64,000 nt of DNA from NCBI GenBank assembly GCA_964384115.1, contig CAYLJU010000001.1, positions 6,469 to 70,468 on the forward strand, read 5' to 3'. Below the pieces are notes generated by a model. It was not told the origin of the DNA. It did not search any database and saw only the letters and a program-made list of their open reading frames with translations. The stretch's first letter is position 1, and each line of letters begins with the position of its first letter. A program made the translations under genes and the position numbers. The DNA comes from an uncultured Muribaculaceae bacterium (GTDB taxonomy: Bacteria > Bacillota_I > Bacilli_A > RF39 > UBA660). Positions 42,298 through 45,155 of this stretch are shown piece after piece.

Positions 42298-43113
42298 ATG
42301 AATGTATATAAAGTTAAAAATGGTGATGGAATAGAAAGTAGTTCTATTATTCATGGTGAAGAAAAATTAAGTGATATTTTAGGAAATACAACAGCAGGTT
42401 TTCATAATTCGATTTATCGAGGTAAAGATATTACTGAAATGTTTTATGATGGAACATTGACAACAAGAGTTGCTAATAATGATTTTACTGATATTTTTAT
42501 AGGGGATTATATTATAGGAAAATCTAGTGGAAGAAAGTATTTAGTAGCAGATATTAATTATAGATTACATTGTGGTGATACAGAATGTACAAAACCACAT
42601 ATTCTTATGATACCTGAAAAGAGTATGGGAACTGCACAAATGAACACATCAAATGTTGTGACAGGTGCTTATCCATCTAGTGCTATGTATACAACTAATT
42701 TAGCATCATATAAAACAATAATAAATAATGATTTTGGTTCATCTCATATTTTAAGTCATAGAAATGTTTTTGCAAATTCAGTAAGTGGTGAATATGAAAA
42801 TAGTGGTGCTTGGTATGACTCAACAATTGAATTGATGAATGAAAATATGGTTTATGGAAGCAATATATTTCATAATGTTGCTAATGGTACAAATGTTCCT
42901 TATAGTTATGAAATTGATAAATCACAATTATCATTATTTAGATTAGATAAGAGTAAAATAATTGCTTTTAATGATAATGGTTCAAGACAGTGGTACTGGC
43001 TAAGAAATGTTGCAAATTCTTCCTGCTTCTGTTATGTCTACAGCGGTGGTAATAGTAGCTACAGTTGTGCATCCTACTCTGGTGGTGTTCGCCCCTGCTT
43101 TTTAATCTATTAA
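42298..43113 (+). CDS. DGR target protein (variable tail fibre/receptor-binding protein) with C-terminal variable region
   Basis: C-terminus ...NSSCFCYVYSGGNSSYSCASYSGGVRPCFLIY; last 84 nt are the VR matching TR except at adenines. Confidence 0.8.
   Translation: MNVYKVKNGDGIESSSIIHGEEKLSDILGNTTAGFHNSIYRGKDITEMFYDGTLTTRVANNDFTDIFIGDYIIGKSSGRKYLVADINYRLHCGDTECTKPHILMIPEKSMGTAQMNTSNVVTGAYPSSAMYTTNLASYKTIINNDFGSSHILSHRNVFANSVSGEYENSGAWYDSTIELMNENMVYGSNIFHNVANGTNVPYSYEIDKSQLSLFRLDKSKIIAFNDNGSRQWYWLRNVANSSCFCYVYSGGNSSYSCASYSGGVRPCFLIY
43019..43102 (+). repeat. DGR variable repeat (VR)
   Basis: 84 bp matching TR 43811-43894; 11 differences, all at TR adenines. Confidence 0.9.
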
Positions 43114-43156
43114 TCTGCAATCTCACCCCCTTGTGGGGTGAAGCAGATAATAGATT
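43104..43156 (+). promoter_or_regulatory. imperfect hairpin immediately 3' of VR (GC core cacccc/ggggtg, loop cttgt) spanning target stop codon
   Basis: aatctattaatctgcaatctcaccccc ttgt ggggtgaagcagataatagatt. Confidence 0.55.
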
Positions 43157-43231
43157 AAATATAAATTATATCTATCAAAATTGACTAAATTTAAATTTAA
43201 GTATAGAATTATAATTGGGAGTTGATAGATA

Positions 43232-43771
43232 TTGAGTGTATTGAAAAGAAAAAGAAATGTATCTAAAATGGAATTTTATCATAATGCAATTAAATTAAGA
43301 TTAATGATAACTGAATTTTTGTTGAAAGATTTTGGAATAAAATCTCGCAGAAGAAATTTGGAATTTGCAAAAGATGTATATGATATTGATGATGAAGATG
43401 TAGAAGAAATAGAAAATATTTTGTCTGCATACGATTTAAAAAATAGTTTCATTGATAATTTTCCTGAATGGTTAATCGATAAAGAAAGAGATTATTTCAT
43501 GGATTTAATGAGAAGTTTAATGAAAAATATTTGTTCTGCAAATACAATTCATATAACCAATAAAGAAGAATACTATATGAGAAGAAATTATCAAACACAA
43601 GCAATTTGTGATTGTGAAAATCTGCTTCAAGAAATGCAATATATAATATATGTGACTCATCCAAATGTTGAGAAATATATGCCTTATGTTGATATAATTG
43701 AAAAAGAAATTGCTTTATTAAAAGGATGGCGAAAATCTGATAATAAAATAGCAAAAAGTTTAGAAGAATAA
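43232..43771 (+). CDS. DGR accessory protein candidate (Avd-position; divergent and larger than canonical Avd)
   Basis: Located between target gene and TR like BPP-1 avd; helical, basic; start could be TTG 43232 or ATG 43268. Confidence 0.4.
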   Translation: MSVLKRKRNVSKMEFYHNAIKLRLMITEFLLKDFGIKSRRRNLEFAKDVYDIDDEDVEEIENILSAYDLKNSFIDNFPEWLIDKERDYFMDLMRSLMKNICSANTIHITNKEEYYMRRNYQTQAICDCENLLQEMQYIIYVTHPNVEKYMPYVDIIEKEIALLKGWRKSDNKIAKSLEE

Positions 43772-43810
43772 CTTTTTAAAGGGTAAGATTTGAAAAATAT
43801 ACTTGGATGG

Positions 43811-43894
43811 CTTCCTGCTTCTGTAATGTCAACAACAATGGTAATAGTAACTACAATAATGCATCCAACTCTGGTGGTGTTCGCCCCTGATTTT
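43811..43894 (+). repeat. DGR template repeat (TR)
   Basis: Contains AAC/AAT-rich codons (AAT GTC AAC AAC AAT ... AAC TAC AAT AAT); 22 adenines. Confidence 0.9.
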
Positions 43895-44015
43895 AACTCG
43901 CACAATGATTAGGTTAAGTACCGTTGCGATAATTAAAAGGAAATTTTATCCTGTTCGAAAGACAAATGGATATTTTGATACCATCTAATAAGTTAGTTAT
44001 GGTTAGGAACGAAAT

Positions 44016-45155
44016 ATGTTAAATAAGATTAGTAATGCCAATGTTTTAATGGATAGTTTTTATAAATCAAGAAAAAATAGTATTTGGAAAAACAGTGTTC
44101 AACAATATGAAGCAAATCTTTTGAAAAATATTAGAAGAACACAGATAGAATTAAGAGAAAAGACTTATAAACAAAGTCCTTTTGATTGTTTCTATTTAAA
44201 CGAAAGAGGAAAAGAAAGGTATGTTCGTTCTATAAGTTTTTATGATAGAGTGGTACAAAGAGCATTATGTGACCAATTGACTCCCATAGTTGAACCTTAT
44301 CTTATATATGATAATGGTGCAAGTGTGAAAAATAAGGGTATAGATTTTGCTCGAAAAAGAATTGAAAATCACCTACATAGATATTATAGAAAATATGGAA
44401 CTATTGGATATGCACTCACTATCGATTTTAGTAAATTTTATGATAATATTTTACATAAACCATTAATGGATATGTATGATGAATTAATAGAAGATAAAGA
44501 TATAGTAAAACTTATTGAACATTTAGTTGATAGTTTTTCTATTGATGTATCTGATTATAATATTAAAGAAAATGAATTATTTGACTCTTTAACTTATGCA
44601 AAATCAAATAGTGCAAAAACAAAAGAAAGATACATTAATAAATCATTAGGTATTGGTAGTCAAATATCGCAGATATCAGGAATTTATTATGTACATGAAA
44701 TGGATAATTATTGCAAAATTGTTAAAGGTATGAAATTCTATGGAAGATATATGGATGATACATATATTATAAGTAATGATAAAGAACAATTAAAATCTTT
44801 ATTAGAGGATATAGATAAAATATGCAATAAATTAGGTATATTTCTAAACAGGAAGAAAACACAAATACATAGAATAGATAAAGGTTTTACTTTTTTAAAA
44901 ATAAAATATCGTTTAACTGAAACTGGTCATGTTGTTAGAATTCCTGTTAAAAGTGGATTTGTAAGAGAAAGAAGAAAATTAAAAAGTTTCAAAAAAATGC
45001 TTGAAAATGGTCAGATGACATTTAAAGATATAGAAGAACAATACAAGTCTTGGCGAGGTAATATTAAAAAATATGATTGCTATAATAGTTTAAAAAATAT
45101 GGATAAATTATTTAAAGATTTGTTTATTGATAATAATTCACAAAATTCACACTAA
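44016..45155 (+). CDS. DGR reverse transcriptase
   Basis: RT motifs ...TIDFSKFYDNI..., LGIGSQISQ (DGR-type [IV]GxxxSQ), YMDDTYII; 379 aa; directly downstream of TR. Confidence 0.9.
   Translation: MLNKISNANVLMDSFYKSRKNSIWKNSVQQYEANLLKNIRRTQIELREKTYKQSPFDCFYLNERGKERYVRSISFYDRVVQRALCDQLTPIVEPYLIYDNGASVKNKGIDFARKRIENHLHRYYRKYGTIGYALTIDFSKFYDNILHKPLMDMYDELIEDKDIVKLIEHLVDSFSIDVSDYNIKENELFDSLTYAKSNSAKTKERYINKSLGIGSQISQISGIYYVHEMDNYCKIVKGMKFYGRYMDDTYIISNDKEQLKSLLEDIDKICNKLGIFLNRKKTQIHRIDKGFTFLKIKYRLTETGHVVRIPVKSGFVRERRKLKSFKKMLENGQMTFKDIEEQYKSWRGNIKKYDCYNSLKNMDKLFKDLFIDNNSQNSH

What the first reader, a model, noticed from the sequence alone, without database searches (positions are those of the whole stretch)
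42298..45155. Complete diversity-generating retroelement (DGR) in the prophage, between tail-fibre genes and the lysis cassette
The segment contains all canonical DGR parts in BPP-1-like order. (1) A target ORF (42298-43113) whose last 84 nt form a variable region. (2) An accessory ORF in the Avd position (43232-43771). (3) An 84-bp template repeat (43811-43894). (4) A ~120-nt non-coding spacer. (5) A 379-aa reverse transcriptase (44016-45155) carrying the DGR-specific motif LGIGSQISQ and a YMDD catalytic box. Such a system would let the phage hypermutate a tail fibre or receptor-binding protein.
Basis: partly seen in the sequence, partly recalled or inferred. Interest (0 to 1): 0.9.

Follow-up and report, generated by a model that had tools for sequence, protein, structure and literature searches.

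The report
Active phage diversity-generating retroelement (DGR)
This is a genuine, complete and apparently still active diversity-generating retroelement in a gut-Firmicute prophage that rewrites eleven codons at the tip of a small tail-associated receptor-binding protein; it is a well-known kind of system, so it is a good annotation rather than a discovery.

Summary
VR (43019-43097) and TR (43811-43889) differ at 10 positions over 79 nt. All 10 are adenines in TR (P about 2e-7).

The RT (44016-45155) carries the DGR motif IGSQISQ. Its best solved relative is the BPP-1 DGR RT. The accessory ORF (43232-43771) is an Avd homologue with an extra acidic insertion of about 45 aa.

The RNA around TR has the BPP-1 architecture, and four of its five helices are supported by covariation in 18 related loci:
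- an upstream:spacer "stop" duplex;
- a TR-end:spacer priming duplex, which is invariant here, so covariation cannot test it;
- a GAAA stem-loop followed by AAA;
- an Avd-binding-like hairpin;
- a long RT-binding-like stem.

A conserved hairpin follows VR.

The element looks active. A contig from another sample matches the window over 3,140 bp except at 12 bases, and 11 of those are TR-adenine sites in VR. Fourteen near-identical target proteins differ mainly at the 11 codons that TR adenines can change.

VR ends 11-16 nt before the ORF end.

The same layout is published for gut Firmicute phages (Roseburia phage Shimadzu, Faecalibacterium phages). It is a new member of a known kind, of modest interest.

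The parts
42298..43113 (+). Target gene: a 271-aa stand-alone variable protein. Its C-terminal part is a DUF6273 domain, reported in the literature as C-type-lectin-like. It is probably a receptor-binding or tail-associated protein.
   Evidence: ORF. Pfam DUF6273 over aa 208-270, E 4e-7. 1,791 homologues, some with an N-terminal tail-collar fibre domain PF12571. aa 23-270 are 40% identical to the C-terminal 250 aa of 580-aa targets in related loci. DUF6273 is described as a DGR target domain in PMC10743442 and PMC11792537. My own AF2 model was too poor to confirm the fold (pLDDT 51).
43019..43097 (+). Variable repeat (VR) core, 79 nt. The mutable adenine sites fall in 43033-43076 (codons 246-260).
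   Evidence: The 11 codons with a TR adenine at position 1 or 2 are exactly the hypervariable columns in 14 proteins of the same 90% cluster.
43077..43104 (+). IMH: a GC-rich element (CTCTGGTGGTGTTCGCCCCTG) shared with TR, followed by VR-specific CTTTTTA. TR has ATTTTAA (IMH*) at that place.
   Evidence: The C/A difference at 43098/43890 and the following T/A difference are fixed in all 24 related loci. The role of the IMH is taken from BPP-1 work (PMC3240598).
43105..43155 (+). Long hairpin or cruciform-forming inverted repeat immediately after VR. It spans the stop codon. The apical stem is TCACCCC/GGGGTGA with the 5-nt loop CTTGT.
   Evidence: DNA fold -17.5 kcal/mol, z -7.45, 0 of 200 shuffles as stable. 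Every related locus folds the same way although the stem sequences differ, including the 40%-identical L010.
43181..43209 (+). Best sigma-70-like promoter match (TTGACT-17-TAGAAT), upstream of the accessory gene. It may drive the avd-TR-RT transcript.
   Evidence: 10 of 12 matches. This is weak evidence: promoter-like sites are no more frequent here than in shuffles, and some relatives have only 17-54 nt in this gap.
43232..43771 (+). Accessory variability determinant (Avd) homologue, 179 aa. It is a four-helix bundle with an acidic insertion of about 45 aa (aa 32-78) between helix 1 and helix 2.
43780..43791 (+). Upstream strand of the long-range 'stop' duplex (AGGGUAAGAUUU). It pairs with 43941-43952.
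   Evidence: 12 bp, 100% paired in 18 loci, 4 pairs with compensatory changes. The BPP-1 counterpart is the avd:Sp duplex, the cPRT Stop (bioRxiv 10.1101/2023.10.23.563531).
43811..43889 (+). Template repeat (TR) core, 79 nt with 21 adenines. It encodes 9 AAY codons plus AGT and TAC at the variable sites.
   Evidence: It is identical in L039, and has a single difference in L036, whereas VR differs at 11 and 14 sites. No stop codon can arise from adenine changes. About 6e11 protein variants are possible.
43890..43896 (+). TR 3' end (IMH*). A43890 is the predicted first templated nucleotide. UUUUAA (43891-43896) is predicted to pair with spacer UUAAAA.
   Evidence: The pairing is invariant in 18 loci. 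The more distant L034 has UUUC/GAAA at the equivalent place, a U-A to C-G change read by eye from the sequence printed. The assignment is by analogy with TR117-129:Sp47-56 in BPP-1 and is an inference.
43898..43929 (+). First spacer hairpin (UCGCA ... UGCGA), in the position of the BPP-1 Avd-binding stem-loop.
   Evidence: Compensatory changes at 2 of 5 pairs (C-G to U-A in 5 loci, G-C to A-U in 1). L033 has a different 7-bp stem at the same place.
43933..43940 (+). Spacer primer strand UUAAAA, with A43938 as the predicted 2'-OH priming adenosine. It is followed by GG, the 2-nt linker before the stop duplex.
   Evidence: The geometry matches BPP-1: Sp A56, then 2 nt (Sp57-58), then the duplex. 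This is an inference and has not been shown.
43941..43966 (+). Spacer strand of the stop duplex (43941-43952), then a short stem-loop with a GAAA tetraloop (43953-43963), then unpaired AAA (43964-43966).
   Evidence: pair 199/208 is C-G in 14 loci and U-A in 4. This mirrors the BPP-1 cPRT Stop: duplex, tetraloop stem-loop, then A-minor adenosines.
43970..44017 (+). Long interrupted stem-loop in the position of the BPP-1 RT-binding element. The outer helix is 43970-43977 with 44010-44017; the inner helices are 43980-43988 with 43993-44003. It contains the RT ribosome-binding site and the first two bases of the start codon.
   Evidence: 17 pairs, 7 with compensatory changes, 99-100% paired. The single-sequence MFE fold predicts the same helices.
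44016..45155 (+). DGR reverse transcriptase, 379 aa.
   Evidence: Pfam RVT_1, E 4e-22. Best PDB match is 8ub7_A, the BPP-1 bRT: 65.8 bits alone and 75.8 bits with a family profile, against 35.8 and 43.3 bits for the next hits, which are group II and CRISPR-associated RTs. IGSQISQ at 213-219 fits the (I/V/L)GxxxSQ motif (PMC3521204). Residues aligned with bRT F66, R74, D138, I181, G182, Q187 and D215/D216 are F59, R68, D137, I213, G214, Q219 and D247/D248. Best phage hit is the Roseburia phage Shimadzu RT at 36% identity.
45183..45215 (+). Terminator-like hairpin plus T-run after the RT gene. It marks the 3' end of the cassette, before the XhlA-like, holin and endolysin genes.
   Evidence: The downstream genes are identified.

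Best explanation
The segment 42298-45215 is a complete BPP-1-type diversity-generating retroelement carried by a siphovirus-like prophage of about 30 kb in a very AT-rich, spore-forming Firmicute.

Proposed mechanism:
1. A transcript covering avd-TR-spacer-RT folds so that a 12-bp duplex (43780-43791 with 43941-43952) brackets TR.
2. The 3' end of TR (UUUUAA, 43891-43896) pairs with spacer UUAAAA (43933-43938).
3. The RT, held on the RNA by the Avd homologue and by the 3' spacer stem-loop, primes cDNA synthesis from the 2'-OH of A43938. It copies TR from A43890 toward its 5' end, misincorporating at the 21 adenines, and stops at the bracketing duplex.
4. The cDNA replaces VR (43019-43097) in the target gene. 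It is directed there by the GC-rich IMH and the hairpin at 43105-43155.
5. TR itself is never changed, so the cycle can repeat.

The outcome is up to about 6e11 variants of 11 residues (aa 246-260) on the surface of a 271-aa DUF6273 protein encoded directly after the tail-tip genes. This presumably lets the phage change which receptor it binds.

Shown here: the parts, their homology, the RNA helices (by covariation), and VR-only, adenine-only variation in natural populations.

Inferred by analogy with BPP-1: the priming nucleotide, the start and stop points of the cDNA, the role of the hairpin, and the receptor-binding function.
For: TR/VR pattern: 10 of 10 mismatches fall at TR adenines (P 2.4e-7). 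The site pair is unique in the window. TR uses AAY codons at the variable sites, and no stop codon can be generated.

Activity:
- L039, from a different sample, is identical over 3,140 bp except at 12 nt. Eleven of these are VR positions opposite TR adenines, and TR is identical.
- L036 is 97.9% identical overall. It has 14 differences in the 79-nt VR, all at TR-A sites, against 1 in TR, 0 in the IMH and hairpin, and 1 in the spacer.
- Fourteen full-length members of the window protein's own 90% cluster differ at only 7 scattered two-state columns outside VR. Otherwise they vary only at the 11 predicted codons, with up to 11 residue types at one codon.
- All 24 related loci have A-only TR/VR mismatches. 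Six loci share one TR but carry five different VRs.

RT: best solved relative is the BPP-1 bRT by more than 30 bits. It has the IGxxxSQ motif. It falls below the NCBIfam cut-offs for group II (85 against 300), retron (21 against 235) and Drt3a (29 against 200). The phage relatives are DGR phages: Shimadzu, FP_Brigit, VP585 and Bordetella phages.

Avd.

RNA: 43 pairs, 98.8% paired across 18 loci, 14 pairs with compensatory changes. Controls with the 3' partners slid by 1-3 columns give 38-50% paired and 1-4 such pairs. No shuffle out of 500 reaches the observed value.

Hairpin.

Context: tape measure, Dit, Tal, structural protein, target, Avd, TR, RT, XhlA-like, holin, CHAP/CW_7 endolysin. Roseburia phage Shimadzu has the same order.
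Against: - Nothing contradicts a DGR.
- No experimental or read-level data exist for this exact genome. Activity is inferred from differences between assemblies.
- The target's C-type-lectin fold could not be confirmed here. The AF2 model has pLDDT 51, and there is no PDB sequence relative.
- The accessory protein has no Pfam or NCBIfam Avd hit. It is acidic overall (pI 5.6), whereas BPP-1 Avd is described as positively charged.
- The hairpin loop is 5 nt (CTTGT), not the 4-nt GRNA reported as the phage consensus and shown to be important in BPP-1.
- The template:primer duplex is invariant in the 18 loci, so covariation cannot test it. Only one more distant locus (L034) shows a compensatory change.
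- The promoter assignment is weak.
Confidence: 0.95

Rival explanations
1. The cassette has all the parts of a DGR but is now inactive. The VR differences between assemblies would then reflect past activity or recombination between prophage variants, not ongoing mutagenesis.
For: No read-level data for this genome were available. Handa et al. report that fewer than 2% of templates yield cDNA even in the model system. L039 carries a G-to-A change at 43939, next to the predicted priming site, which shows that such sites can drift.
Against: - All ORFs are intact, and the catalytic and template-contacting RT residues are conserved.
- TR, spacer, IMH and hairpin are identical or nearly identical between assemblies that differ at 11-14 VR sites.
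- 11 of the 12 differences in 3.1 kb lie at TR-A sites. That implies diversification more recent than almost any other mutation in the region.
- Recombination would not restrict changes to adenine positions.
Confidence: 0.1
2. The RT belongs to another prokaryotic RT system (group II intron, retron, or an Abi/DRT defence RT), and the 79-nt repeat is an unrelated duplication.
For: NCBIfam and PADLOC give partial, sub-threshold hits to group II, Drt3a, Drt5, retron and UG-class RT models. This is expected for any RT domain.
Against: - All those hits are far below the curated cut-offs.
- There is no group II intron, retron msr/msd or any other Rfam family in the window.
- The RT lacks maturase and endonuclease domains, and it has IGxxxSQ rather than QGxxxSP.
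- The best solved relative is the DGR RT.
- The A-only mismatch pattern has P about 2e-7 and recurs in 24 relatives.
Confidence: 0.01
3. It is a working DGR, but the variable protein is not a host-receptor-binding protein of the virion. It could instead bind mucus or other gut ligands, or act in the lysogen.
For: The target is a stand-alone 271-aa domain with only about 22 N-terminal residues and no recognisable tail-attachment domain. The literature proposes non-receptor roles for some gut-phage DGR targets, for example tentaclins and Hoc-like proteins. Relatives of the RT also occur outside tail modules (L032, L033).
Against: - The gene sits directly after the Dit/Tal/structural genes. Its start codon lies 3 nt after the stop codon of the preceding structural gene.
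- Homologues of the same domain are fused to tail-collar fibre domains (PF12571) or to long N-terminal fibre-like regions.
- In Shimadzu the equivalent gene is annotated as tail fibre.
Confidence: 0.2

Closest known systems
Bordetella phage BPP-1 DGR (mtd-avd-TR-brt), the prototype
   Same: - Gene order: target(VR)-avd-TR-spacer-RT.
- A-only TR/VR differences, with AAY codons in TR.
- A GC-rich IMH that differs from IMH* just after the GC element, and a hairpin after VR.
- An RT with IGxxxSQ, YMDD and conserved template-contacting residues.
- A four-helix-bundle Avd.
- The same RNA architecture: a long-range duplex bracketing TR; a TR-end:spacer duplex ending in an adenosine 2 nt before that duplex; a tetraloop stem-loop followed by adenosines; a 5' spacer hairpin; and a long 3' stem-loop that ends at the RT start.

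   Different: - RT similarity to bRT is distant (65.8 bits, E 4e-17).
- TR is 79-84 nt rather than 134 nt.
- The target is a 271-aa DUF6273 protein, not the 381-aa Mtd.
- The upstream strand of the stop duplex lies in the 39-nt gap after the avd stop codon, not in the last avd codons.
- The tetraloop is GAAA rather than UNCG.
- The hairpin after VR is longer, with a 5-nt non-GRNA loop.
- Avd carries an acidic insertion of about 45 aa and is acidic overall.
Roseburia phage Shimadzu DGR (LR596903.1) and other gut Firmicute phage DGRs (Faecalibacterium phages, phages nd4/nd12)
   Same: - Closest RT among deposited phages (36% identity).
- The same cassette order and the same position between the tail-fibre and lysis genes.
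- The Avd proteins are homologous (hhalign 97.8%).
- Small DUF6273 targets with a C-terminal VR are described for nd4/nd12 'tgt2' and for Faecalibacterium prophages.
   Different: - No deposited phage matches at the DNA level, and every RT hit in the phage collection is below 60% identity.
- Shimadzu Avd is 136 aa and lacks the insertion.
- The window has a single target. No second, tentaclin-type VR was found.
Uncultured relatives in gut metagenomes (RT 76-97% identical; loci L001-L024, L036, L037, L039)
   Same: They form one family. The cassette, the spacer RNA and the Avd insertion are the same. TR is nearly identical in the closest loci, and VR differs in every locus.
   Different: The target gene varies from 249 to 650 aa through different N-terminal parts. 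Some members sit elsewhere in the phage genome or in a context that does not look like a phage.
Group II intron reverse transcriptases
   Same: They are the nearest non-DGR RT clade. The N-terminal extension and the finger and palm motifs align.
   Different: - No intron RNA is present.
- There is no maturase or endonuclease domain.
- The score is far below the family cut-off (85 against 300 bits).
- Motif 4 is IGxxxSQ, not QGxxxSP.

Membership tests
Diversity-generating retroelement (DGR) | A TR/VR repeat pair whose differences fall almost only at TR adenines (DiGReF criterion: at least 7 adenine exchanges in 50 bp) | tested here: met
   10 of 10 mismatches at TR-A within 43 bp (43033-43075). 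P 2.4e-7. DiGReF criterion from PMC3521204.
Diversity-generating retroelement (DGR) | VR lies at the 3' end of a protein-coding gene; TR lies outside the target gene, next to the RT | tested here: met
   VR covers codons 241-267 of a 271-codon ORF. TR lies in the avd-RT intergenic region, 126 nt before the RT start.
Diversity-generating retroelement (DGR) | RT of the DGR clade with the (I/V/L)GxxxSQ motif in domain 4 | tested here: met
   IGSQISQ at aa 213-219; S218 and Q219 are invariant in 22 family members. The best PDB relative is the BPP-1 bRT by more than 30 bits. No full phylogeny was built.
Diversity-generating retroelement (DGR) | An accessory protein (Avd or equivalent) encoded next to TR | tested here: met
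Diversity-generating retroelement (DGR) | IMH at the VR 3' end that differs from IMH* at the TR 3' end, plus a hairpin/cruciform downstream of VR | tested here: met
   A shared GC-rich element is followed by a fixed VR-versus-TR difference in 24 loci. The hairpin has z -7.45 and is conserved with changed stem sequences. Its loop is 5 nt, not GRNA. Its function cannot be tested here.
Diversity-generating retroelement (DGR) | In populations, VR varies at adenine-templated sites while TR stays constant | tested here: met
   using public assemblies rather than reads from this genome.
Diversity-generating retroelement (DGR) | Cis-acting DGR RNA elements around TR (stop duplex, priming duplex, protein-binding stem-loops) | tested here: met
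   Covariation on 18 loci and element-by-element correspondence with BPP-1. The priming duplex is supported only by its conservation and one compensatory change in L034.
Diversity-generating retroelement (DGR) | Adenine-mutagenic, cis-primed cDNA synthesis and retrohoming | not testable with these tools
   This needs biochemistry or genetics.
Diversity-generating retroelement (DGR) | Target variable region displayed on a C-type-lectin (or Ig-like) fold | tested here: inconclusive
   Pfam DUF6273 hit, and the literature assigns DUF6273 a C-lec-like fold. My own AF2 model was unusable (pLDDT 51), and there is no PDB sequence relative.
Group II intron | RT/maturase reaching the family threshold, plus ribozyme domains flanking the ORF | tested here: not met
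   TIGR04416 scores 85 bits against a cut-off of 300. No Rfam group II hit anywhere in the window.
Retron | Retron-type RT plus an msr/msd non-coding RNA | tested here: not met
   The retron RT model scores 20.9 bits against a cut-off of 235. No retron RNA family hit.
Defence-associated RTs (DRT/UG, Abi) | A full-length match to a DRT/Abi RT model and the associated effector domains | tested here: not met
   Drt3a scores 29 bits against a cut-off of 200. The Drt5 model (cut-off 550 bits) scores 25.5 bits. PADLOC UG-class hits are partial and weaker than the generic RT model. The RT is only 379 aa and has no extra domain.

The most novel reading that the evidence does not exclude
The accessory protein may represent a distinct, so far unannotated Avd subclass. 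It has about 300 homologues in public data, none with a Pfam domain. An acidic helix/strand subdomain of about 45 residues is inserted between helix 1 and helix 2 of the four-helix bundle, which makes the protein acidic overall. If the insertion changes how the Avd barrel contacts the RT or the spacer RNA, or mimics nucleic acid, this family would be a structural variant of the DGR ribonucleoprotein core. The rest of the element is conventional.
Probability: 0.25. Interest if true: 0.35.

Novelty: new member of a known kind. Interest (0 to 1): 0.25.

Why it matters
The cassette can be annotated correctly throughout: target, VR, IMH, hairpin, Avd, TR, spacer RNA elements and RT. These genes carry no annotation, or only 'hypothetical protein', in the public collections searched.

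The family is abundant in gut metagenomes. There are thousands of RT and target homologues, and one RT variant occurs on more than 500 contigs.

The closely related loci give a natural covariation data set that supports the BPP-1 RNA architecture in a distant, very AT-rich Firmicute phage lineage. They also allow a concrete, testable prediction of the priming adenosine (A43938).

It does not change what is known about DGRs.

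Tried and rejected
- **Rfam:** no family in the window at gathering thresholds. Only chance-level hits appear in 43700-44100 at E up to 10. Rfam reported no match to the spacer.
- **DNA search against deposited phages (blastn):** no match.
- **Structure prediction of the target protein:** pLDDT 51. The alignment was too shallow in diversity, so no fold search was run on it. A profile search of the target against PDB sequences found nothing.
- **First structure job for the accessory protein:** It was redone with database homologues.
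- **AFDB Foldseek library:** not available.
- **Similarity of the Avd insertion to archaeal ribosomal protein uS13:** E 1.4e-3. It became weaker with a family profile (E 0.011), so I treat it as a probable chance match.
- **RNAalifold's alternative pairing of TR interior CAAUGGUA with spacer UACCGUUG:** rejected in favour of the UCGCA/UGCGA hairpin. The hairpin shows compensatory changes; the alternative shows none and is broken in the more distant loci.
- **Idea that the upstream ORF (41560-42294) is the detached N-terminal part of longer targets:** rejected, because there is no similarity.
- **PADLOC:** uninformative for placing the RT.
- **Single-sequence folding of the whole DGR RNA:** no more stable than shuffles (z +1.6). 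The evidence for structure is therefore covariation, not energy.
- **Look-up of the source contig:** it did not name the organism.

Full report
**Observation**

A direct repeat of 89 nt links 43019-43107 to 43811-43899, at an offset of 792.

Over the 79-nt core (43019-43097 / 43811-43889) the two copies differ at 10 positions. In every case the downstream copy has A and the upstream copy has G or T. The downstream copy has 21 A in 79 nt, so the chance that all 10 mismatches fall on A is 2.4e-7. A search pattern with those adenines set to N, allowing 3 mismatches, matches only these two sites in the 64 kb, with 0 matches expected by chance. The GC-rich 3' element likewise occurs only twice, so there is a single VR in the window.

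In the reading frame of the target, the TR copy carries nine AAY codons plus AGT and TAC at the positions that differ. Adenine changes there can never create a stop codon. They allow about 6e11 protein variants, or 4^21 DNA variants.

All 24 related loci show the same contrast...CCCCTG-C-TTTTTA in VR against ...CCCCTG-A-TTTTAA in TR. This is the fixed IMH/IMH* difference that gives homing its direction in BPP-1 (PMC3240598).

VR is also not literally the last 84 nt of the ORF. The stop codon lies 16 nt beyond the core.

**The proteins: RT**

- The RT has a Pfam RVT_1 domain.
- Its best solved relative is the BPP-1 DGR RT (8ub7_A). It scores 65.8 bits alone and 75.8 bits with a 22-member family profile. 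The next hits, which are group II intron and CRISPR-associated RTs, score 35.8 and 43.3 bits respectively.
- IGSQISQ at aa 213-219 fits the (I/V/L)GxxxSQ motif. [quoted passage not shown]
- Residues aligned with the bRT residues that contact the template base and the incoming dNTP, and with the catalytic aspartates, are conserved: F59, R68, D137, I213, G214, Q219 and D247/D248.
- NCBIfam scores for group II (85 against 300), retron (21 against 235) and Drt3a (29 against 200) are far below the cut-offs. PADLOC gave only generic or partial RT hits.
- By tblastn the nearest deposited phage is Roseburia phage Shimadzu (36% identity). It is followed by uncultured gut phages, Acutalibacter and Faecalibacterium phages and Vibrio phage VP585; Bordetella phages are also among the 88 matching records.

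**The proteins: accessory protein**

It has no Pfam or NCBIfam hit and only a weak PHROG 'Avd protein of DGR' hit. An AlphaFold model built on 50 homologues (pLDDT 83.5) is a four-helix bundle: H14-31, H79-105, H111-142 and H146-169. About 45 extra residues (two short strands and two helices, aa 32-78) sit between helix 1 and helix 2.

- The two best BFVD matches are 'Avd-like protein'.
- A profile of the family aligns to the annotated Avd of phage Shimadzu with 97.8% probability.

It is therefore an Avd homologue. Its TTG start is supported by a GGGAG ribosome-binding site 9 nt upstream and by ATG at the same position in relatives. The insertion is acidic (pI 4.3) and makes the whole protein acidic (pI 5.6). 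BPP-1 Avd, by contrast, is described as positively charged. This is the one feature I could not find described.

**The proteins: target**

It matches Pfam DUF6273 over aa 208-270. Almost its whole length (aa 23-270) is homologous to the C-terminal 250 aa of much longer targets in related loci. Some homologues carry a tail-collar fibre domain.

Published analyses of gut-phage DGRs describe DUF6273 as a C-type-lectin-like domain with the VR at its C-terminus. They include stand-alone proteins of 234-294 aa (PMC10743442, PMC11792537). My own model of the target was too poor to check the fold.

**The RNA**

I aligned 43775-44018 with the equivalent stretch of 17 related loci whose RTs are about 63-86% identical to the window's. 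I then counted pairs for an explicit structure. Of 43 pairs, 98.8% of cells are paired and 14 pairs show compensatory changes. Sliding the 3' partners by 1-3 columns gives 38-50% paired and 1-4 such pairs. No shuffle out of 500 reaches the observed values.

The helices map one-to-one onto the BPP-1 ribonucleoprotein described by Handa et al. (bioRxiv 10.1101/2023.10.23.563531):

- (i) A 12-bp duplex between a segment upstream of TR (43780-43791) and the spacer (43941-43952). This is their avd:Sp 'cPRT Stop' duplex.
- (ii) Immediately 3' of it, a short stem-loop with a GAAA tetraloop (43953-43963), followed by unpaired AAA. BPP-1 has a UNCG stem-loop followed by A-minor adenosines.
- (iii) The TR 3' end UUUUAA (43891-43896) paired with spacer UUAAAA (43933-43938). 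The last adenosine sits exactly two nucleotides before the stop duplex, as for Sp A56 in BPP-1.
- (iv) A 5' spacer hairpin (43898-43929) in the Avd-binding position.
- (v) A long interrupted stem-loop (43970-44017) in the RT-binding position. It reaches into the RT start codon.

From this I predict A43938 as the priming nucleotide and A43890 as the first templated nucleotide. This is an inference. Helix (iii) is invariant in the 18 loci, and only the more distant L034 shows a U-A to C-G change there, read from the sequence printed. Handa et al. already report stop duplexes and Avd-binding hairpins in 207 of 278 DGRs, so this conservation is expected.

**The target site**

A hairpin of about 20 bp (43105-43155) follows VR and spans the stop codon. 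Its apical stem is TCACCCC/GGGGTGA. As DNA it folds at -17.5 kcal/mol with z -7.45. Every related locus folds the same way with different stem sequences, and even the 40%-identical L010 has a GC-rich hairpin there.

This matches the hairpin/cruciform needed for efficient homing in BPP-1. However, the loop here is 5 nt (CTTGT or TTTAT), not the 4-nt GRNA consensus.

**Activity**

- The window's target protein belongs to a 90%-identity cluster of 25 sequences. Fourteen full-length members differ at only 7 scattered two-state columns outside VR. At codons 246, 248-250, 252-257 and 260 they carry up to 11 different residues. These are exactly the 11 codons with a TR adenine at position 1 or 2.
- At the DNA level, L039 comes from another sample and encodes an identical RT. 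It differs from the window at 12 of 3,140 positions. Eleven of them are VR sites opposite TR adenines, and TR is identical.
- L036 is 97.9% identical overall. It has 14 differences in VR, all at TR-A sites, against 1 in TR, 0 in the IMH and hairpin, and 1 in the spacer.
- Six more distant loci share one TR but carry five different VRs.

This is what ongoing or very recent mutagenic homing produces.

**Context**

The cassette follows the tape measure (37135-39639), Dit (39639-40499), a Tal-like protein (40499-41533) and a 244-aa structural protein. It precedes XhlA-like, holin and CHAP/CW_7 endolysin genes. A terminator-like hairpin follows the RT gene. Phage Shimadzu has the same order: tail fibre, Avd, RT, then (after two hypothetical genes) endolysin.

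The prophage runs from about 16956 to 46966. It carries an integrase, a CI-like repressor and a large terminase (TerL). It interrupts a beta-lactamase-family gene and is flanked by a direct repeat of about 21 nt. The host is very AT-rich (25.7% GC) and has CotJB/CotJC spore-coat genes. Relatives come from gut MAGs labelled Clostridia, Clostridium or Bacilli, and from IMG/VR.

**Verdict**

The finding is real and correctly interpreted. It is a complete, apparently active, BPP-1-type phage DGR. It is a new member of a known and abundant kind.

The points beyond routine annotation are:
- the Avd insertion;
- the non-GRNA hairpin loop;
- the covariation-backed RNA map, with a predicted priming adenosine.

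Interest is modest, at 0.25.

Noticed in passing
window 16122-16883 (-), 47007-47654 (-), 16956-16987 and 46946-46966: The prophage of about 30 kb splits a beta-lactamase-family (serine hydrolase) gene. The N-terminal part lies right of the prophage and the C-terminal part lies left of it. An att-like direct repeat, GTAGCACACA[A/G]GTAGCCCACA, sits at both ends. The integrase (17031-17792, -) and a CI-like S24 repressor (18278-18967, -) are at the left end.
   Followed up: partly
window 43939; locus L039 position 924: L039 is otherwise identical to the window outside VR, but it has A instead of G at 43939. This is the nucleotide immediately 3' of the predicted priming adenosine, at the position equivalent to Sp G57, which is required in BPP-1. 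It could be a homopolymer assembly error, a register shift of the priming site, or an inactivating change.
   Followed up: no
window 43325-43465 (accessory protein aa 32-78): The Avd homologue has an acidic insertion of about 45 aa (pI 4.3) that canonical Avd proteins lack, including Shimadzu Avd and the Avd of L010. It shows weak sequence similarity to archaeal ribosomal protein uS13 (E 1.4e-3 alone, 0.011 with a profile), which is probably chance. About 300 database homologues share the insertion, and none has a Pfam annotation.
   Followed up: partly
window 43123-43141: The apical loop of the hairpin after VR is 5 nt (CTTGT; TTTAT in some relatives). The phage consensus is a 4-nt GRNA loop, and both loop size and loop sequence were critical in BPP-1.
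   Followed up: partly
window 43970-44017: The base of the 3' spacer stem-loop pairs 43970-43977 with 44010-44017. This helix encloses the RT ribosome-binding site and the first two bases of the RT start codon. RNA folding or RT binding could therefore limit RT translation.
   Followed up: no
loci L032 (1031-4125) and L033 (1425-4122): RT relatives at 64-66% identity sit in other contexts. In L033 the cassette lies between the terminase and portal genes. In L032 it lies next to a rhomboid protease gene and a metallophosphatase gene, with no phage genes in view. Target proteins across the family range from 249 to 650 aa and share only the C-terminal variable domain of about 250 aa.
   Followed up: partly
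window 1-64000: No Rfam family reaches its gathering score anywhere in the 64 kb, so there is no tRNA, riboswitch or other known RNA. The window is 25.7% GC and encodes CotJB and a CotJC-type Mn catalase (14622-15611, -), which points to a spore-forming Firmicute host.
   Followed up: no
window 43081-43093 and 43873-43885: The GC-rich element shared by VR and TR can form a small 5-bp hairpin (GGTGG-TGT-TCGCC) followed by a T-run, and the scan flags it as terminator-like in both copies. RNAalifold also predicts it, with one or two compensatory changes. Whether it matters for cDNA initiation or for homing is unknown.
   Followed up: no
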